A DNA stretch of 63,233 nt, filler included, from Catajapyx aquilonaris (Eukaryota), in the NCBI GenBank assembly GCA_000934665.2. It is 2 parts of 2 records of this genome, joined end to end, with 100 filler letters (N's around TTAATTAATTAA, not from the genome) between each part and the next. Parts side by side here need not be neighbours in the genome. Positions count along the whole stretch, not along the records: positions 31,677 to 63,233 come from JYFJ02004517.1; 1 more part is not named here. One strand, 5' to 3'. Position numbers and translations under genes: made by a program. Of this stretch, positions 47,264-51,247 are shown piece by piece. The first letter of the stretch is position 1. Every line of letters starts with the position of its first letter. The notes under the pieces are model-generated. The model searched no databases and was not told the origin of the DNA. It saw only the letters and a list, made by a program, of their open reading frames with translations.

Positions 47264-47796
47264 ATGACGTCTGAATCCGTGAAGGACAGGAGGACCTGGA
47301 GCGAGCTACATCTGGCAGCTGACAAAGGACATTTCGACATAATCGAAGACCTCCTCCGCCGTGGGGACGACGTGAATGCACGTAGCGGGATATTCTACAG
47401 GACTCCGCTCATTCTGGCAGCCAGGATCCCAAACATTCCTACCTGCGAGAAGCTGGTGTCTCATCCAGGATGCGACGTCAATTCGCAGGACCAGTATGGT
47501 GTGTCCGCACTTCACGAAGCGGCTGAGCGAGGCAGCGTGCAGGTGTGTCAGTTGCTACTTGACAACCGCGCGGAGGTGGACATCCCGTCAAACTCTGGGT
47601 TCACTCCTCTACATGTGGCGGCCAGGGCTGGTCAGCTGATGGTGGCCAAGCTTTTGCTGGAGAAGGGAGCTAACCCATTGGCCTTGACCCACGAGGAAAT
47701 GACCCCATCACATCTCGCAAACGAGGAAGGACACACGCCTGTGTGGCGACTCCTGAAGGATGCGGCAGACAACTCTCAAAATCAAGGTGGAGCCAG
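47264..47796 (+). CDS. Exon 1 of the ANK / eIF2-alpha kinase / TPR gene: 4-5 ankyrin repeats
   Basis: CAACATG start; LHLAADKGH, TPLILAA, SALHEAAERG, TPLHVAARAG and TPSHLA repeats; AG|GTAAGC donor. Confidence 0.9.
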
Positions 47797-47885
47797 GTAA
47801 GCGCAATGGTGGCGCCACTACCCGATGGCAGCAAAAGATCGAATCAAAATTTGCATACCTTCACAATTGCTCGTTTCCACAATAG

Positions 47886-48812
47886 GTTTGTTGAGCTGGC
47901 CGACGAAGTTTTCCCTTTCAAAATAGGCCACCTGGAAAGGGCATTTAAAGTCTCAAGTTATTTGGGTTCTGGAGGCTTCGGATTGGCTTTTGAGGCTCTG
48001 GAGATACGGACGAGTCAAGTGTGTGCGATCAAACGAATATGTCTGAAGAGTGCGACCAACAAATCTCTGAGGGAAGTTCGAGCCCTGATGGAGCTTCGAC
48101 ACGTCAACATTGTCACGTTCTACGGATGCTGGAGAGAACAACCAGAGTCCAAGAAGCAGAGAGATTGGGACAGGACTCATTTCACCGAACTTGTGTGCTC
48201 CAGGCAGACATACCATCTGGATACCACGCCCTACATGTACGTCCAGATGGAGCTGTGTCGCAGAGAGACTCTCGAGCATTACATCTCCAAGAACAGGCAC
48301 GAGGTGAATCAACACCTGTTCATGTCATACGTCATGCAGATTGCTTCAGCATTGAAGTACATCCACGGAAGGGGCTATATCCACAGGGACCTGAAGCCAT
48401 CCAACATCTTGTTCTCCCTGGATGGCGTGGTGAAAATCGGAGACTTTGGGTTGGCTAAAGAGATAGCAGGCTACTCCGTACGGAACTTGACGCGCCACGA
48501 CCAGACCACTGGGGTCGGAACCCTGTGGTACATGAGTCCTGAACAGCAGATCGGAGATGAATATGACTACAAAACTGATGTATTCTCTCTCGGCATAATA
48601 TTCTACCTCGGGATGACCTCCTTCCCAAGCACCTTCACCTCCAGCCAACAGGAACGTGCTCTGATGAAGCTGAAGTTGGGATTGGAGAATGTGCCACCGC
48701 ATTTCGCTGAGCAGAATCCGGAGAGTAGGCAGGAGCTGCTTCTGTTGATGTGCAAGGAGGAGCCAAAGAAAAGGCCGTCTGCTGCTTACGTGGAAAAGCT
48801 CCTTGCAGAATG
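47886..48812 (+). CDS. Exon 2: eIF2-alpha kinase family catalytic domain (PERK/PKR-like)
   Basis: LGSGGFG, AIKRI, REVRAL, HxNIVxFYxxW, an insert followed by YVQMELC, HRDLKPSNI, KIGDFGL and GVGTxxYMSPEQ. AATAG acceptor in phase 2 and TG|GTGAGT donor. Confidence 0.93.
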
Positions 48813-48933
48813 GTGAGTACACTGAAATTATTATTAATTGCCTTATTTTAAATTTTTTTAAATACAAAAACCGCCTTGGGAAAAACAATCTATTGCATTA
48901 ATTGTTATCTATTGATTTCTCCGTTCATTTCAG

Positions 48934-48979
48934 GCTAAATACCAGTGACCTACCCACTGCTACACAGTCGTCTAGACAG
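48934..48979 (+). CDS. Exon 3: 46-nt linker micro-exon (WLNTSDLPTATQSSRQ)
   Basis: TTTCAG acceptor and CAG|GTAATT donor. It converts phase 2 to phase 0, exactly as needed to join the kinase and TPR exons. Confidence 0.8.
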
Positions 48980-49009
48980 GTAATTATTGTCCCTTCTTCC
49001 GACGGACTG

Positions 49010-49690
49010 TCCACATAGTACCATCTCTCTCACGTAAATGGCGCACACTACCAGGGAGCATAATATACTACACAAGAGGCGCAAACTTCTGTCGGCGCCT
49101 TTGATGTTCGCGTCTCTGTTTGTGGTCGTTGCCAAGGCTGGCGGCCATTTTGAAGCGTGGGGAACGCCAACGAGGTATAAATAGGGTACAGGCAGGCCGT
49201 CAAGGTCCGCCGGAGTCCGCCATCTTTGATGGTTTTGGCTGCCATGGCAATACACGGCAATAACACGCACGAATTTGAATTCGATATTGGAATGGGTAAG
49301 TAAACATGCAAAATTCAATTTAAAAAGGAAGATAGTTGCATAATTAATAATTGGTTTCGTCACTATTTACGCAATTAATACGGAGAAAAGGGCATTAAAG
49401 GAGCTCATACCCCAAGAATATTCAAATTCGCGCGTGTTATTGCCGTGTATTGCCATGGCAGCCAAAACCATCAAAGATGGCGGACCTTGACGGGCTGCCT
49501 GTACCCTATTTATACCTCGTTGGCGTTCCCCACACTTCAAAATGGCCGCCAACCTTGGAAACGGCCCCAAGCAGAGAGACGCGAAAATCGAATGTTTGCG
49601 CCTCATATGTAGTAGGCCCTATATGCTCCCTGACACTACTGCCACTCTCAGGGTCGGATGAGGAGTAGTGGTACTGTACTACGTGGAACT
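49010..49690. mobile_element. Foldback/MITE in intron 3 of the kinase gene
   Basis: Arms of about 200 bp (49067-49280 and 49420-49612) are reverse complements, e.g. GGGGAACGCCAACGAGGTATAAATAGGGTACAGGCAG. Confidence 0.85.
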
Positions 49691-50200
49691 ATAGAGCCTC
49701 TAGGAAGAGAGTCGCCAACTTCTGACATCACGTATGCAATAATGAGTCAACCCACACGAGACCCGTTTTGAGGAAAAGGGATTTGAAGGTCATACATGTG
49801 AAATTAATTCAAGTGTCCTTTTCGGTCGTTTGTGGCAGAAATATGCAGATTTCGCCTCCCTTGATTTTAACTGAATGATTTGGGTGTTTGTCCCTGGGAT
49901 TAACTCAATTTTAACATTTATCGTGGGTTGACCCATTATTGCATAACACCGTCCAATCAGGTCCAATTTTGGACTGGTTACGTGTCCTATGGAGGCCTTC
50001 GTATTGCTTTGCTGGCTCTGACGCCATGGTCGACTCCGATTTGCTGGAGTAGTACAGGCCTTCTGGCTCCAGCCAATCAGAGACGATCGTGACGTCAGTA
50101 GTTAGCGAATGACTCACCCGGACAAGCAGAGGAACATCCTAGCCAATTGTAGGCTACAGTATATATGATTAAAAACCGGATTTGCTTCTTTTTTTTGCAG

Positions 50201-51247
50201 GATGCCCAGAGCAGTACCGGTAATGAGCAAGGAGCAACAGCGAAGGACGATTCAACTAATGAACATTCGCCTGCAGGATCTGCGGATAATGCAGGTCAAT
50301 CTGACACGGACAACTCCAAAGAAAGCATTACTGCTGACACTCTACTTCATGCAAACGAATGTCACGATTCTCTAGGAGATTACAAGGAGGTTTTACAAAA
50401 ACTGGAGGCGGTGTTGGGTCATGACCACCTGGATACACTTAGGACAAAGCACAGCATCGCCATTGAGCTTCGAAGCAAAGGGAAGTTGGAAGAATCCTTG
50501 CAGGTTTACAGGGAGGTTTTAGATAAGAGGGAAGTGGTGTTGGGCCATGATCATCCGGAGACTCTTTTGACAAAGCATGACATTGCTTTCGTGTTGCACA
50601 ATCAGAGGAAGTATGAGGAAGCCTTGAGGATTTACAGAGAGGTCTTGGACATTCGGATAAGAGTGTTGGGTCATGATCATCCGCACACTCTTACTACAAA
50701 TCACGACATCGCTTTTGTGCTTCAGAGACAAGAGAAGTACGAAGAAGCCATGCGGGTTTACACTGAAGTGTTGGATAAGAAGAGGAAGGTGTTTGGCCAT
50801 GACCATCCAGACACTCTTGTCACAAAGCATGACATGGCTTTTGTGCTTTGTAAACAAGGAAAGTACGAGGAATCCATGCAGATTTACCGGGAGGTACTGT
50901 ATAAGAGAGGAAACTTGTTGGGTCGTGACCATCCGGACACACTATTGACGAAATATGACATCGCCTGCCTGTTACAACTCCAAGGGAAGTTCGAGGAAGC
51001 ATTGGGGACTTACAGGGAGGTTTTGGACAAGAGGGAAATAGTGTTGGGGAGTGACCATCCTGACACTCTTATCACAAAGCATGACATGGCGGTCACGCTT
51101 GAGCACCAAGAGAAGTACGAAGAAGCACTGATGGTTTACAGGGAGGTTTTGGGAAGACAAGAAGTGGTGTTGGGTCATGGCCATCCGGACACTCTTCAGA
51201 CAAAGAATAACCTTGACTTCGTGATGGCAAAGAGCAGCACATCATAA
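50201..51247 (+). CDS. Exon 4: acidic Ser/Thr-rich linker and seven 42-aa TPR repeats (kinesin-light-chain type, GxDHPxT)
   Basis: TTTTTTGCAG acceptor in phase 0, no own start codon after the acceptor, 126-bp periodicity and a TAA stop. Confidence 0.9.
   Translation, partial: DAQSSTGNEQGATAKDDSTNEHSPAGSADNAGQSDTDNSKESITADTLLHANECHDSLGDYKEVLQKLEAVLGHDHLDTLRTKHSIAIELRSKGKLEESLQVYREVLDKREVVLGHDHPETLLTKHDIAFVLHNQRKYEEALRIYREVLDIRIRVLGHDHPHTLTTNHDIAFVLQRQEKYEEAMRVYTEVLDKKRKVFGHDHPDTLVTKHDMAFVLCKQGKYEESMQIYREVLYKRGNLLGRDHPDTLLTKYDIACLLQLQGKFEEALGTYREVLDKREIVLGSDHPDTLITKHDMAVTLEHQEKYEEALMVYREVLGRQEVVLGHGHPDTLQTKNNLDFVMAKSSTS

What the first reader, a model, noticed from the sequence alone, without database searches (positions are those of the whole stretch)
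47264..51247. Hidden 4-exon gene encoding an ankyrin / eIF2-alpha kinase / TPR fusion: a non-canonical integrated-stress-response kinase
Seen in sequence: three ORFs listed separately are joined by canonical GT-AG introns (47797-47885, 48813-48933, 48980-50200) and a 46-nt micro-exon. All phases match, giving 533+927+46+1047 = 2553 nt, or 850 aa with no stop or frameshift, in a region where most transposon ORFs are decayed. Established: YxQMELC after an insert, HRDLKPSNI and GTxxYMSPEQ define the eIF2-alpha kinase family. Its canonical animal members use a luminal domain (PERK), RWD plus HisRS-like domains (GCN2), heme-binding regions (HRI) or dsRNA-binding domains (PKR); none has ANK plus TPR. 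Inference: this is a cytosolic kinase (no signal peptide or TM segment) with sensor-type repeats on both sides, possibly a pathogen-triggered translation shut-off module analogous to PKR. The ANK-before-kinase layout recalls RNase L.
Basis: partly seen in the sequence, partly recalled or inferred. Interest (0 to 1): 0.92.

Follow-up and report, generated by a model that had tools for sequence, protein, structure and literature searches.

The report
Ankyrin–eIF2α-type kinase–TPR gene, unverified splicing
An animal genome holds an intact-looking gene that joins a divergent relative of the stress and antiviral kinases that shut down protein synthesis to two kinds of protein-binding repeats, a combination I could not find elsewhere, but nothing yet shows that it is expressed, spliced as proposed, or acts on the translation factor.

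Summary
Exons 47264-47796, 47886-48812, 48934-48979 and 50201-51247 join through three GT-AG introns into 2553 nt (850 aa, one terminal stop). They encode ankyrin repeats, a protein kinase domain and six-plus TPR_10/12 units.

The kinase keeps its catalytic residues. It is closest to PERK, PKR and GCN2 by PDB sequence search, a scan of 1.84 billion proteins, home-made HMMs, signature columns and predicted fold. It is very divergent: identity is at most about 44%, and its place among the subfamilies is unresolved.

No eIF2α-type kinase with ankyrin or TPR repeats turned up among the 523 proteins fetched or in eight literature searches.

Weak points:
- No RNA data could be obtained.
- The kinase-to-TPR link rests on a 46-nt micro-exon, one of 59 phase-compatible candidates, though the best-scoring one.
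- The substrate is untested.

Earlier notes of this scan report ankyrin plus eIF2α-kinase-like genes elsewhere in the same genome, so this is probably one member of a lineage-specific family. The TPR tail is the new element.

Verdict: a new variant of a known kind, of moderate to high interest.

The parts
47264..47796 (+). Exon 1: start codon and 4-5 ankyrin repeats (aa 1-177 plus two bases of codon 178)
   Evidence: Ank_2 7e-37 and Ank 1.9e-34 with 4 stretches. An in-frame TGA lies three codons before the ATG and there is an A at -3. If the intron is retained, the donor reads AGG TAA, an immediate stop.
47797..47885 (+). Intron 1, 89 nt, GT-AG
   Evidence: Best of 27 in-frame GT..AG alternatives by a crude consensus score. 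Not verified by RNA.
47886..48812 (+). Exon 2: complete protein kinase domain of eIF2α-kinase type (aa 178-486). In exon-2 numbering: K49, E63, HRD166-168, N173, DFG186-188, T207, SPE217-219. Add 178 for full-length numbering.
   Evidence: Pkinase 3e-50. PERK 146 bits against NEK7 95.6 in PDB. 39 of 42 universal kinase columns kept and 18 of 30 family-specific columns. AF2 pLDDT 84. Foldseek top 18 are PERK/PKR/GCN2.
48813..48933 (+). Intron 2, 121 nt, 26% G+C. The donor GTGAGT gives TGG TGA if retained, so an unspliced RNA would encode an ankyrin-kinase protein without TPR.
   Evidence: No AATAAA or ATTAAA in 48813-48980.
48934..48979 (+). Exon 3: 46-nt micro-exon (15 codons plus one base) that restores the phase between kinase and TPR. 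This is the least certain part.
   Evidence: Ranks first of 59 phase-compatible stop-free candidates, with acceptor tttcag|G and donor CAG|gtaatt. No RNA or comparative support.
48980..50200 (+). Intron 3, 1221 nt, holding two foldback (MITE-like) inverted repeats at 49066-49614 and 49733-49945
   Evidence: Inverted repeats: 99-nt arms 93% complementary, 66-nt arms 98%, 23-nt arms 96%. A polypyrimidine tract and CAG lie at 50182-50200.
50201..51247 (+). Exon 4: about 60 aa of Ser/Asp/Thr-rich linker, then one partial and six full 42-aa TPR units of the TPR_10/TPR_12 (kinesin-light-chain / NPHP3) type, a capping half unit, and the stop codon
   Evidence: TPR_10 7e-73, TPR_12 6e-69. Units in register; 15 unit pairs give mean pN 0.23, mean pS 0.55, median dN/dS 0.31. 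126-nt period, 6.3 copies.

Best explanation
This is one protein-coding gene of four exons on the + strand. It encodes an 850-aa cytosolic protein of about 97 kDa. From N- to C-terminus it has 4-5 ankyrin repeats, a complete and probably active Ser/Thr kinase domain derived from the eIF2α-kinase (PERK/PKR/GCN2) family, a disordered acidic/Ser-rich linker, and a TPR_10/12 solenoid of six to seven units.

Shown:
- The frames, splice-site consensus and domain content.
- Intact catalytic residues.
- Family-level likeness of the kinase.
- Absence of the four canonical sensor domains.
- No membrane segment.

Inferred, by analogy with PKR, PKZ, PERK and GCN2, in which one kinase cassette is driven by different sensor domains:
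- The two repeat domains bind a protein (or other) ligand, or hold the kinase in check.
- Ligand-driven clustering brings kinase domains together.
- The activation-loop threonine (T207 of exon 2, in a column that is Thr in all 38 PERK/PKR/GCN2 rows) is autophosphorylated.
- The kinase then phosphorylates its substrate, most likely eIF2α, through a helix αG that keeps the family's ER pair and has Ser where the family has Thr.

Retaining intron 2 would give an ankyrin-kinase form without TPR.

My odds: a real gene with an ankyrin-kinase fusion 0.8; TPR in the same transcript 0.7; eIF2α as substrate 0.5.
For: Gene model:
- 2553-nt CDS with one stop, and consensus donors and acceptors.
- Intron 2 is 26% G+C against 50% in the flanking exons.
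- The TPR frame opens only 16 codons before a textbook acceptor.

Kinase family:
- PDB phmmer: the first 19 distinct sequences are EIF2AK3, 4, 2 and 1 (146 to 100 bits), then NEK7 at 95.6.
- Of 31 of the 150 best representatives from 1.84 billion proteins scanned with Pfam, 13 carry dsrm (one also z-alpha) and 4 carry a PERK-type propeller.
- Named near relatives are all EIF2AK3-like, PKZ, PKR-like or EIF2AK4.
- HMM scores: PERK 259, PKR 220, bacterial-type 189 bits. A held-out GCN2 scores 297/239/164. Two non-family kinases score 88/107-133/143-147.
- 18 of 30 PERK+PKR-specific columns match. GCN2 matches 24, other unlabelled rows on that side 18-25, non-family controls 7-9, and the bacterial-type rows a median of 2 with a maximum of 7.
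- The query lies on the eukaryotic side of a 98* split from 40 bacterial-type kinases.
- Foldseek's top 18 are PERK/PKR/GCN2, including the PKR-eIF2α complex 2a19_B at TM 0.75.

Other points:
- Catalytic integrity: 39 of 42 universal columns kept.
- Cytosolic: the highest Kyte-Doolittle 19-residue window is 1.39.
- TPR under constraint: median dN/dS among units is 0.31.
- Sensor-swap precedent: PKR arose by adding dsRBDs to an existing EIF2AK (PMC11305385, passages read). PKZ carries Zα domains instead (PMC7137213, abstract in the listing).
Against: - No RNA evidence of any kind was obtainable, so no junction is verified.
- The exon-2 frame ends in a stop exactly at the proposed donor. A two-exon ankyrin-kinase gene followed by a separate TPR gene therefore fits the DNA as well. 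An in-frame ATG lies at 50165, 12 codons before the acceptor.
- 59 micro-exon candidates satisfy the phase rule.
- No AATAAA or ATTAAA follows the final stop until 52377.
- The kinase is very divergent, with at most about 44% identity to anything.
- In the quick ML tree it sits on a long branch (1.2) outside an SH-aLRT-94 group of PERK+PKR+GCN2. The AU test does not reject placing it inside (p 0.49), so its position is simply unresolved.
- HRI and close eukaryotic outgroups (NEK, WEE1 and the like) were not in the tree.
- 12 of 30 family-specific columns differ, among them the αG Thr (Ser here). The near-universal αF Glu is Leu.
- The AF2 model was built from an alignment rich in EIF2AK sequences, so the Foldseek ranking is not fully independent.
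- No orthologue or paralogue was available to test for selection.
Confidence: 0.6

Rival explanations
1. There are two genes. One is a two-exon ankyrin-kinase gene that ends at the TGA at 48814-48816. The other is an independent downstream TPR gene, starting at the ATG at 50165 or fed by another 5' exon. The micro-exon is a chance AG..GT stretch.
For: The stop sits exactly at the end of the kinase exon. 59 phase-compatible micro-exon candidates exist. The TPR ORF has its own in-frame ATG 12 codons before the acceptor. TPR_10/12 proteins are common as separate modules.
Against: GTGAGT at the stop is a perfect donor. The 121 nt after it are 26% G+C and end in a pyrimidine-rich tttcag acceptor, and the micro-exon ends in CAG|gtaatt. 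No AATAAA or ATTAAA lies in 48813-48980. The ATG at 50165 sits inside the run-up to a ttttttttgcag acceptor, and the 12 residues it would add are hydrophobic filler. Both parts lie on the same strand, 1.4 kb apart, and most of that gap is two inserted foldback elements.
Confidence: 0.22
2. The gene is real and spliced as proposed, but the kinase no longer acts on eIF2α. It would be an EIF2AK-derived kinase that has taken on another substrate or a scaffold role, as expected for a fast-evolving lineage-specific duplicate.
For: Only 18 of 30 family-specific columns are kept, the low end of the family range. The αG Thr is Ser and the αF Glu is Leu. The branch is long and the tree position unresolved. 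The bacterial-type HMM still gives 189 bits.
Against: The columns that are kept include the W.E after β4, Q..C of YVQMELC, the activation-loop Thr, Y226/K229 and the αG ER pair. The score pattern over the PERK, PKR and bacterial HMMs parallels that of GCN2, a true eIF2α kinase. The model superposes on PKR from the PKR-eIF2α complex at TM 0.75.
Confidence: 0.3
3. The locus is a young, unexpressed or decaying chimera in a transposon-rich region. Its frames are still open only because too little time has passed.
For: The surroundings are rich in repeats and broken transposon ORFs: RT at 43922-44383, an integrase remnant at 33196-34029, a split PIF1 helicase at 55223-56127, a satellite at 44919-46133, and inverted repeats just downstream. 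There is no RNA support and no orthologue was found.
Against: 850 codons have no stop or frameshift. All catalytic residues are intact. TPR units have diverged to about 70% DNA identity with dN/dS 0.31 and no disruption, which implies long-term constraint on that exon. Transposon insertions have landed in the intron, not in exons.
Confidence: 0.12

Closest known systems
PERK (EIF2AK3) kinase domain
   Same: It is the best single-domain sequence match: 146 bits in PDB, 150-168 bits per domain among fetched proteins, and 259 bits against a PERK HMM. It is the Foldseek rank-1 hit, 3qd2. It shares the YVQMELC, HRDLKPSNI and STxxER-type αG motifs and has an insert between β4 and β5.
   Different: There is no signal peptide, lumenal propeller or TM segment. 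The kinase insert is about 30 aa rather than hundreds. Identity is only 31-44%. The query is not nested in the PERK clade.
PKR (EIF2AK2) and fish PKZ
   Same: These are cytosolic eIF2α kinases in which the sensor domain sits N-terminal to the same kinase cassette and has been swapped in evolution (dsRBD to Zα). The highest whole-protein scores in 1.84 billion proteins belong to dsrm/z-alpha-bearing proteins. Activation goes by dimerisation and autophosphorylation (PMC13712846, passages read).
   Different: The sensors here are ankyrin and TPR repeats, which bind proteins as a rule, not nucleic-acid-binding domains. There is also a second repeat domain C-terminal to the kinase. PKR is reported only from chordates or jawed vertebrates (PMC5851622 and PMC11305385, passages read).
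Ankyrin plus eIF2α-kinase-like genes noted earlier in the same genome (e1-7500568, e1-7506613)
   Same: The layout is the same: ankyrin repeats in front of a divergent eIF2α-type kinase exon. Those agents placed the genome in arthropods.
   Different: Those notes mention no TPR domain. My sequence look-up found no stretch like this one, so any paralogues are below about 60-70% identity. I could not read those loci, so kinship is unverified.
RNase L
   Same: Ankyrin repeats precede a kinase-fold domain in a cytosolic innate-immune effector (recalled, not from a call).
   Different: No KEN/RNase domain is present. The kinase here has all catalytic residues, whereas RNase L is a pseudokinase (recalled). 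No RNase L or IRE1 chain is among the 60 best PDB sequence hits.
Bacterial Ser/Thr kinases with C-terminal TPR_10/12 (PknG-like and many metagenomic proteins)
   Same: The order is the same, kinase then TPR solenoid. 32 such proteins were among those fetched.
   Different: 0 of those 32 have a kinase domain that scores higher on the EIF2AK HMM than on the bacterial HMM. They have no ankyrin repeats and no introns.

Membership tests
eIF2α kinase family (EIF2AK / PEK) | The kinase domain is more similar to EIF2AK1-4 than to other kinase families | tested here: met
   The top 19 PDB sequences are EIF2AK3/4/2/1. HMM scores are PERK 259, PKR 220, bacterial-type 189, Pfam Pkinase 171 bits. Foldseek's top 18 are PERK/PKR/GCN2. 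The margin over NEK7 is small against HRI (100.6 vs 95.6 bits) but large against PERK.
eIF2α kinase family (EIF2AK / PEK) | Insert between β4 and β5, followed by the Y[IV]QM[EQ]LC strand | tested here: met
   About 30 residues lie between WRE (82-84) and YVQMELC (118-124) and align with the inserts of PERK and PKR-like rows. This part has low pLDDT in the model. That the insert is a family hallmark is recalled knowledge.
eIF2α kinase family (EIF2AK / PEK) | Family-specific conserved columns | tested here: met
   18 of 30 columns that are at least 85% conserved in 37 PERK+PKR rows and at most 25% in 40 bacterial-type rows. Held-out GCN2 matches 24, non-family controls 7 and 9, the ingroup minimum is 19. 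The query is at the low edge of the family range.
eIF2α kinase family (EIF2AK / PEK) | Activation-loop threonine (PKR Thr446 position; the numbering is recalled) | tested here: met
   T207 lies five residues before the GT of GTLWYMSPEQ. That column is Thr in 38 of 38 PERK/PKR/GCN2 rows and in 3% of outgroup rows.
eIF2α kinase family (EIF2AK / PEK) | Helix αG substrate-docking motif T..ER | tested here: inconclusive
   E256 and R257 are kept. The Thr column (92% in the family) is Ser253. The model has a helix at 252-263.
eIF2α kinase family (EIF2AK / PEK) | Monophyly with PERK, PKR, GCN2 and HRI against other eukaryotic kinases | tested here: inconclusive
   The query is on the EIF2AK side of a 98* split from bacterial-type kinases, but outside an SH-aLRT-94 PERK+PKR+GCN2 group. 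The AU test gives p 0.49 for placing it with PERK+PKR. No HRI and no close eukaryotic outgroup were available.
eIF2α kinase family (EIF2AK / PEK) | Phosphorylates eIF2α on Ser51 | not testable with these tools
   This needs a biochemical or yeast assay.
Canonical subfamilies PERK / GCN2 / PKR / HRI | The subfamily's own sensor domain (lumenal propeller plus TM; RWD plus HisRS-like; dsRBD or Zα; haem-binding N-terminus) | tested here: not met
   Pfam finds only Ank, Pkinase and TPR families in the three large exons. No TM segment. An HRI-type haem region has no Pfam model that I could check.
RNase L / IRE1 type | KEN ribonuclease domain after the kinase fold | tested here: not met
   Exon 4 is linker plus TPR only.
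NLR / STAND sensors with TPR or ANK arms | Central NACHT or NB-ARC NTPase | tested here: not met
   There is no NB-ARC, NACHT or AAA hit in any exon. Many of the closest TPR matches do carry NB-ARC (PF00931), so only the repeat type is shared.

The most novel reading that the evidence does not exclude
Some arthropods, which lack PKR, have built their own cytosolic translation shut-off sensors. They would have done so by fusing an eIF2α-kinase cassette to NLR-style protein-recognition repeats: ankyrin in front and, in this gene, TPR behind. The kinase would then be triggered by a pathogen or damage-associated protein rather than by dsRNA. The gene would be one member of a fast-evolving family of such guards, with intron-2 retention switching between TPR-bearing and TPR-less forms.
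Probability: 0.2. Interest if true: 0.85.

Novelty: new variant of a known kind. Interest (0 to 1): 0.62.

Why it matters
All well-studied eIF2α kinases use one conserved kinase cassette behind different sensors, and the sensor defines the stress that is read. PKR-type antiviral sensing is reported only from vertebrates (PMC5851622 and PMC11305385, passages read). How invertebrates couple infection to translational arrest is less clear.

An eIF2α-type kinase flanked by two classes of protein-binding repeats would be a new input to the integrated stress response. It would also be another natural case of sensor swapping. It can be tested directly with standard yeast and in vitro assays.

If the kinase has left eIF2α behind, it would instead show how this cassette is re-used for other signalling.

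Tried and rejected
- RNA evidence: the look-up of sequencing runs listed no RNA holder, so read laying could not be used.
- Whole genome: none is held for this window, so paralogues could not be counted or read.
- Complex prediction (kinase homodimer) could not be run: the queue was full twice, then the tool was declared unavailable. 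Nothing was folded.
- Metagenome contigs: one distant locus only, 27% identity.
- Protein Atlas: only generic kinase clusters for the kinase exon, and TLDc clusters (commonest phylum Chordata) for a neighbouring exon. This gave no help with architecture or taxon.
- Rfam: no family in the window.
- Scan notes by sequence and by relatives: nothing alike.
- Architecture searches:
  - The kinase 'longer' and 'near' searches and the TPR 'longer' search gave no protein above 54% identity to any exon, and none combining an eIF2α-type kinase with Ank or TPR.
  - 1 of the 150 best representatives has ankyrin repeats (P0262) and 0 have TPR.
  - P0262 and all 32 kinase+TPR proteins have bacterial-type kinases.
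- Literature: eight searches listed no paper describing an ankyrin- or TPR-bearing eIF2α kinase. 'ankyrin' and 'TPR' occur 0 times in PMC5851622. 'ankyrin' and 'tetratricopeptide' occur 0 times in PMC11305385. Supplements of these papers were not opened.
- A Wolbachia origin for the TPR exon was considered, because one Wolbachia protein is 51% identical. I set it aside: fungal, spider and bacterial TPR_10/12 proteins score alike, as expected for consensus-like repeats.
- A direct exon 2 to exon 4 join is out of frame at the strong acceptor. It becomes in-frame only at a weak AG 11 nt further on (read).
- I could not establish the taxon myself. 'Arthropod' comes from earlier notes.

Full report
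**1. What is in the sequence**

On the + strand an ATG at 47264 opens a frame that runs to 47796. An in-frame TGA lies three codons upstream and there is an A at -3. The frame is followed by CAG|gtaagc.

The four proposed exons are 47264-47796, 47886-48812, 48934-48979 and 50201-51247. Joined, they give 2553 nt, that is 850 codons and one terminal stop. All three introns are GT-AG:
- Donors: CAG|gtaagc, ATG|gtgagt, CAG|gtaatt.
- Acceptors: aatag|G, tttcag|G, ttttgcag|G.

Intron 2 is 26% G+C against 50% for the exons on either side. Intron 3 (1221 nt) is mostly two foldback elements, at 49066-49614 and 49733-49945.

**2. How much the phase match proves**

It proves less than it seems. 27 GT..AG pairs would join the ankyrin frame to the kinase frame without a stop. 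59 AG..GT stretches between exon 2 and exon 4 would serve as a phase-restoring micro-exon.

That score counts matches to MAG|GTRAGT plus the pyrimidine content upstream of the acceptor. It is my own and is not calibrated.

Both large donors create an immediate stop if the intron is retained (AGG TAA and TGG TGA). The DNA alone therefore also fits shorter products: ankyrin only, or ankyrin-kinase.

**3. Domains**

Pfam results:
- Exon 1: Ank_2 at 7e-37, with four Ank stretches.
- Exon 2: Pkinase at 3e-50 over residues 21-300 of 308.
- Exon 4: TPR_10 at 7e-73 and TPR_12 at 6e-69.

Exon 4 starts with about 60 residues rich in Ser, Asp and Thr. It then holds one partial and six full 42-residue units ending in G-H-D-H-P-D-T-L-type turns, plus a capping half unit.

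The units are about 70% identical at the DNA level. Over 15 pairs of units, mean pN is 0.23, mean pS is 0.55 and median dN/dS is 0.31. The repeat array has therefore diverged under constraint rather than decayed.

The highest Kyte-Doolittle 19-residue window is 1.39, inside kinase helix αF, and the N-terminus is hydrophilic. This argues for a soluble cytosolic protein of about 97 kDa.

**4. What kind of kinase**

- *PDB sequence search.* The first 19 distinct sequences are PERK (146 bits), GCN2, PKR and HRI (100.6). NEK7 follows at 95.6.
- *Scan of 1.84 billion representatives.* An exhaustive phmmer scan gave nothing above about 44% identity. I scanned 31 of the 150 best with Pfam: 13 carry dsRNA-binding motifs (one also Zα) and 4 carry a PERK-type propeller. 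With local seed searches over everything fetched at that point, 15 proteins were PKR-like and 37 PERK-like.
- *Names.* The names attached to near relatives are EIF2AK3-like (coral, beetle, butterfly, woodlouse, mite, spider), PKZ, PKR-like and EIF2AK4.
- *Per-domain scores.* PERK domains score highest (150-168 bits), PKR-like 114-142, one GCN2 109, bacterial kinases 100-114.
- *Home-made HMMs.* The query scores 259 bits (PERK), 220 (PKR) and 189 (bacterial type). A held-out GCN2 scores 297/239/164. Two non-family eukaryotic kinases score 88/107-133/143-147.
- *Signature columns.* Of 30 columns conserved in PERK+PKR and rare in bacterial-type kinases, the query keeps 18. GCN2 keeps 24, other unlabelled rows on that side 18-25, the two non-family controls 7 and 9, and the bacterial-type rows a median of 2 with a maximum of 7. 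The kept columns include W82 and E84 after β4, Q120 and C124 of YVQMELC, G185, T207, Y226, K229, E256 and R257.
- *Catalytic residues.* 39 of 42 universal kinase columns are kept. The three misses are V34A in the glycine loop, E241L in αF and L289C. K49, E63, HRD, N173, DFG and SPE are all there, so I predict an active enzyme.
- *Predicted fold.* An AlphaFold2 model of exon 2 (21-row alignment, mean pLDDT 84, pTM 0.85) has the usual fold, a disordered activation loop and a helix at 252-263 where αG is expected. Foldseek ranks PERK, PKR and GCN2 in the first 18 places, among them PKR from the PKR-eIF2α complex at TM 0.75. CaMKII and Aurora follow. The alignment behind the model was rich in eIF2α kinases, so this ranking is not independent of the sequence result.

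**5. Limits of the family claim**

I built a quick maximum-likelihood tree of 97 kinase domains. The query lies on the eukaryotic side of a starred split (SH-aLRT 98) from 40 bacterial-type kinases. It sits on a long branch (1.2) outside a group, supported at 94, that holds PERK, PKR and the one GCN2.

Forcing it together with the PERK+PKR crown costs 0.43 log-likelihood units, with p-AU 0.49. Its place is therefore unresolved, not excluded.

The tree had no HRI and no close eukaryotic outgroup, because I could not obtain such sequences by id. I therefore call the domain 'eIF2α-kinase-type, very divergent'. I leave strict clade membership open.

**6. Is the architecture known?**

- Among the 150 best representatives, 1 has ankyrin repeats and 0 have TPR.
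- Among all 523 proteins fetched, 32 combine a kinase with TPR and one combines a kinase with ankyrin. Every one of these has a bacterial-type kinase: 0 of 32 score higher on the EIF2AK HMM.
- The TPR exon's best matches (up to 54% identity) are generic TPR_10/12 proteins of fungi, bacteria, a Wolbachia strain and a spider NB-ARC protein.
- Eight literature searches listed no paper on such a kinase.
- Two evolutionary studies of the family do not use these words. 'ankyrin' and 'TPR' occur 0 times in PMC5851622. 'ankyrin' and 'tetratricopeptide' occur 0 times in PMC11305385. I searched the main text only, and read passages.
- Earlier notes of this scan describe ankyrin plus eIF2α-kinase-like genes on two other pieces of the same genome and call the animal an arthropod. 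I could not read those loci, and no look-alike of my sequence is indexed. I treat them as a lead that this gene belongs to a lineage-specific family. Those notes mention no TPR tail.

**7. Surroundings**

The gene lies in repeat-rich DNA:
- A 12/28-nt satellite at 44919-46133, upstream.
- A 99%-identical inverted repeat at 51564-51667 and 52020-52123, and a 93-nt direct repeat at 51283-51374 and 52486-52577, just downstream.
- A LINE-type RT fragment at 43922-44383.
- An integrase remnant at 33196-34029.
- A PIF1-type (Helitron-like) helicase split over two frames at 55223-56127.
- A TLDc exon at 23517-23993.

The first AATAAA after the stop codon is at 52377.

**8. Most likely mechanism**

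Shown: an open, consensus-spliced frame; three domain types; an intact kinase of eIF2α-kinase type; no membrane anchor.

Inferred from the way the family works: sensor-driven dimerisation, autophosphorylation, then eIF2α (PMC13712846 and PMC11305385, passages read). On that basis:
- The ankyrin and TPR solenoids bind a protein ligand or restrain the kinase.
- Clustering leads to autophosphorylation at T207.
- The kinase then phosphorylates eIF2α through αG.

The equivalence of T207 and S253 to human PKR Thr446 and Thr487 is my recollection of PKR numbering, not a tool result.

My odds: a real ankyrin-kinase gene 0.8; TPR in the same transcript 0.7; eIF2α as substrate 0.5. The main rivals are two separate genes, a kinase that has changed substrate, and an unexpressed young chimera.

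**9. Verdict**

- This is a new variant of a known kind: a eukaryotic eIF2α-type kinase with new flanking repeat domains, probably one member of a family already glimpsed in this genome.
- It is worth an RT-PCR and a yeast eIF2α assay.
- The immune-sensor reading remains speculation.

Noticed in passing
window 47121-47242: A possible 5'-UTR intron: AAG|gtgagt at 47121 and ttgcag| ending at 47242, just upstream of the start codon. If real, the first (non-coding) exon lies before 47121.
   Followed up: no
window 49066-49614 and 49733-49945: Two foldback (MITE-like) elements inside intron 3. The first has nested arms of 99 nt (93% complementary), 66 nt (98%) and 21 nt (90%). The second has 23-nt arms (96%).
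   Followed up: partly
window 44919-46133: A 1.2-kb satellite of a degenerate 12/28-nt unit (ATAAAGTTACCC), 1.1 kb upstream of the gene. Short matches to it occur at 42701-42772.
   Followed up: partly
window 51283-51374 / 52486-52577 and 51564-51667 / 52020-52123: A 93-nt direct repeat (91%) begins 36 nt after the stop codon, with a 104-nt inverted repeat (99%) between its copies. This is probably a young transposon insertion in or near the 3' UTR. The first AATAAA after the stop is at 52377.
   Followed up: no
window 50410-51205: Tandem Repeats Finder scores the TPR array higher at a 378-nt period (three units, 73% matches) than at 126 nt (69%). This hints that the array grew by duplication of a three-unit block.
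   Followed up: no
window 23517-23993 (+): An exon encoding a TLDc domain (Pfam TLD 1e-34), of the OXR1/NCOA7/TLDC2 type. It is presumably part of a neighbouring host gene.
   Followed up: partly
window 55223-56127 (+): A PIF1-like helicase (Pfam 2.9e-28) split over two overlapping frames. It is probably a decayed Helitron-type transposon.
   Followed up: partly
window 33196-34029 (-) and 43922-44383 (-): Retroelement remnants: an integrase C-terminal part (weak rve, Integrase_p58_C) and a reverse-transcriptase fragment (RVT_1 5e-17).
   Followed up: partly
window 30713-31576 (+): A 288-aa open frame with no Pfam match that runs into a gap of N (31577-31620). G+C-rich overlapping frames lie on both strands.
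   Followed up: no
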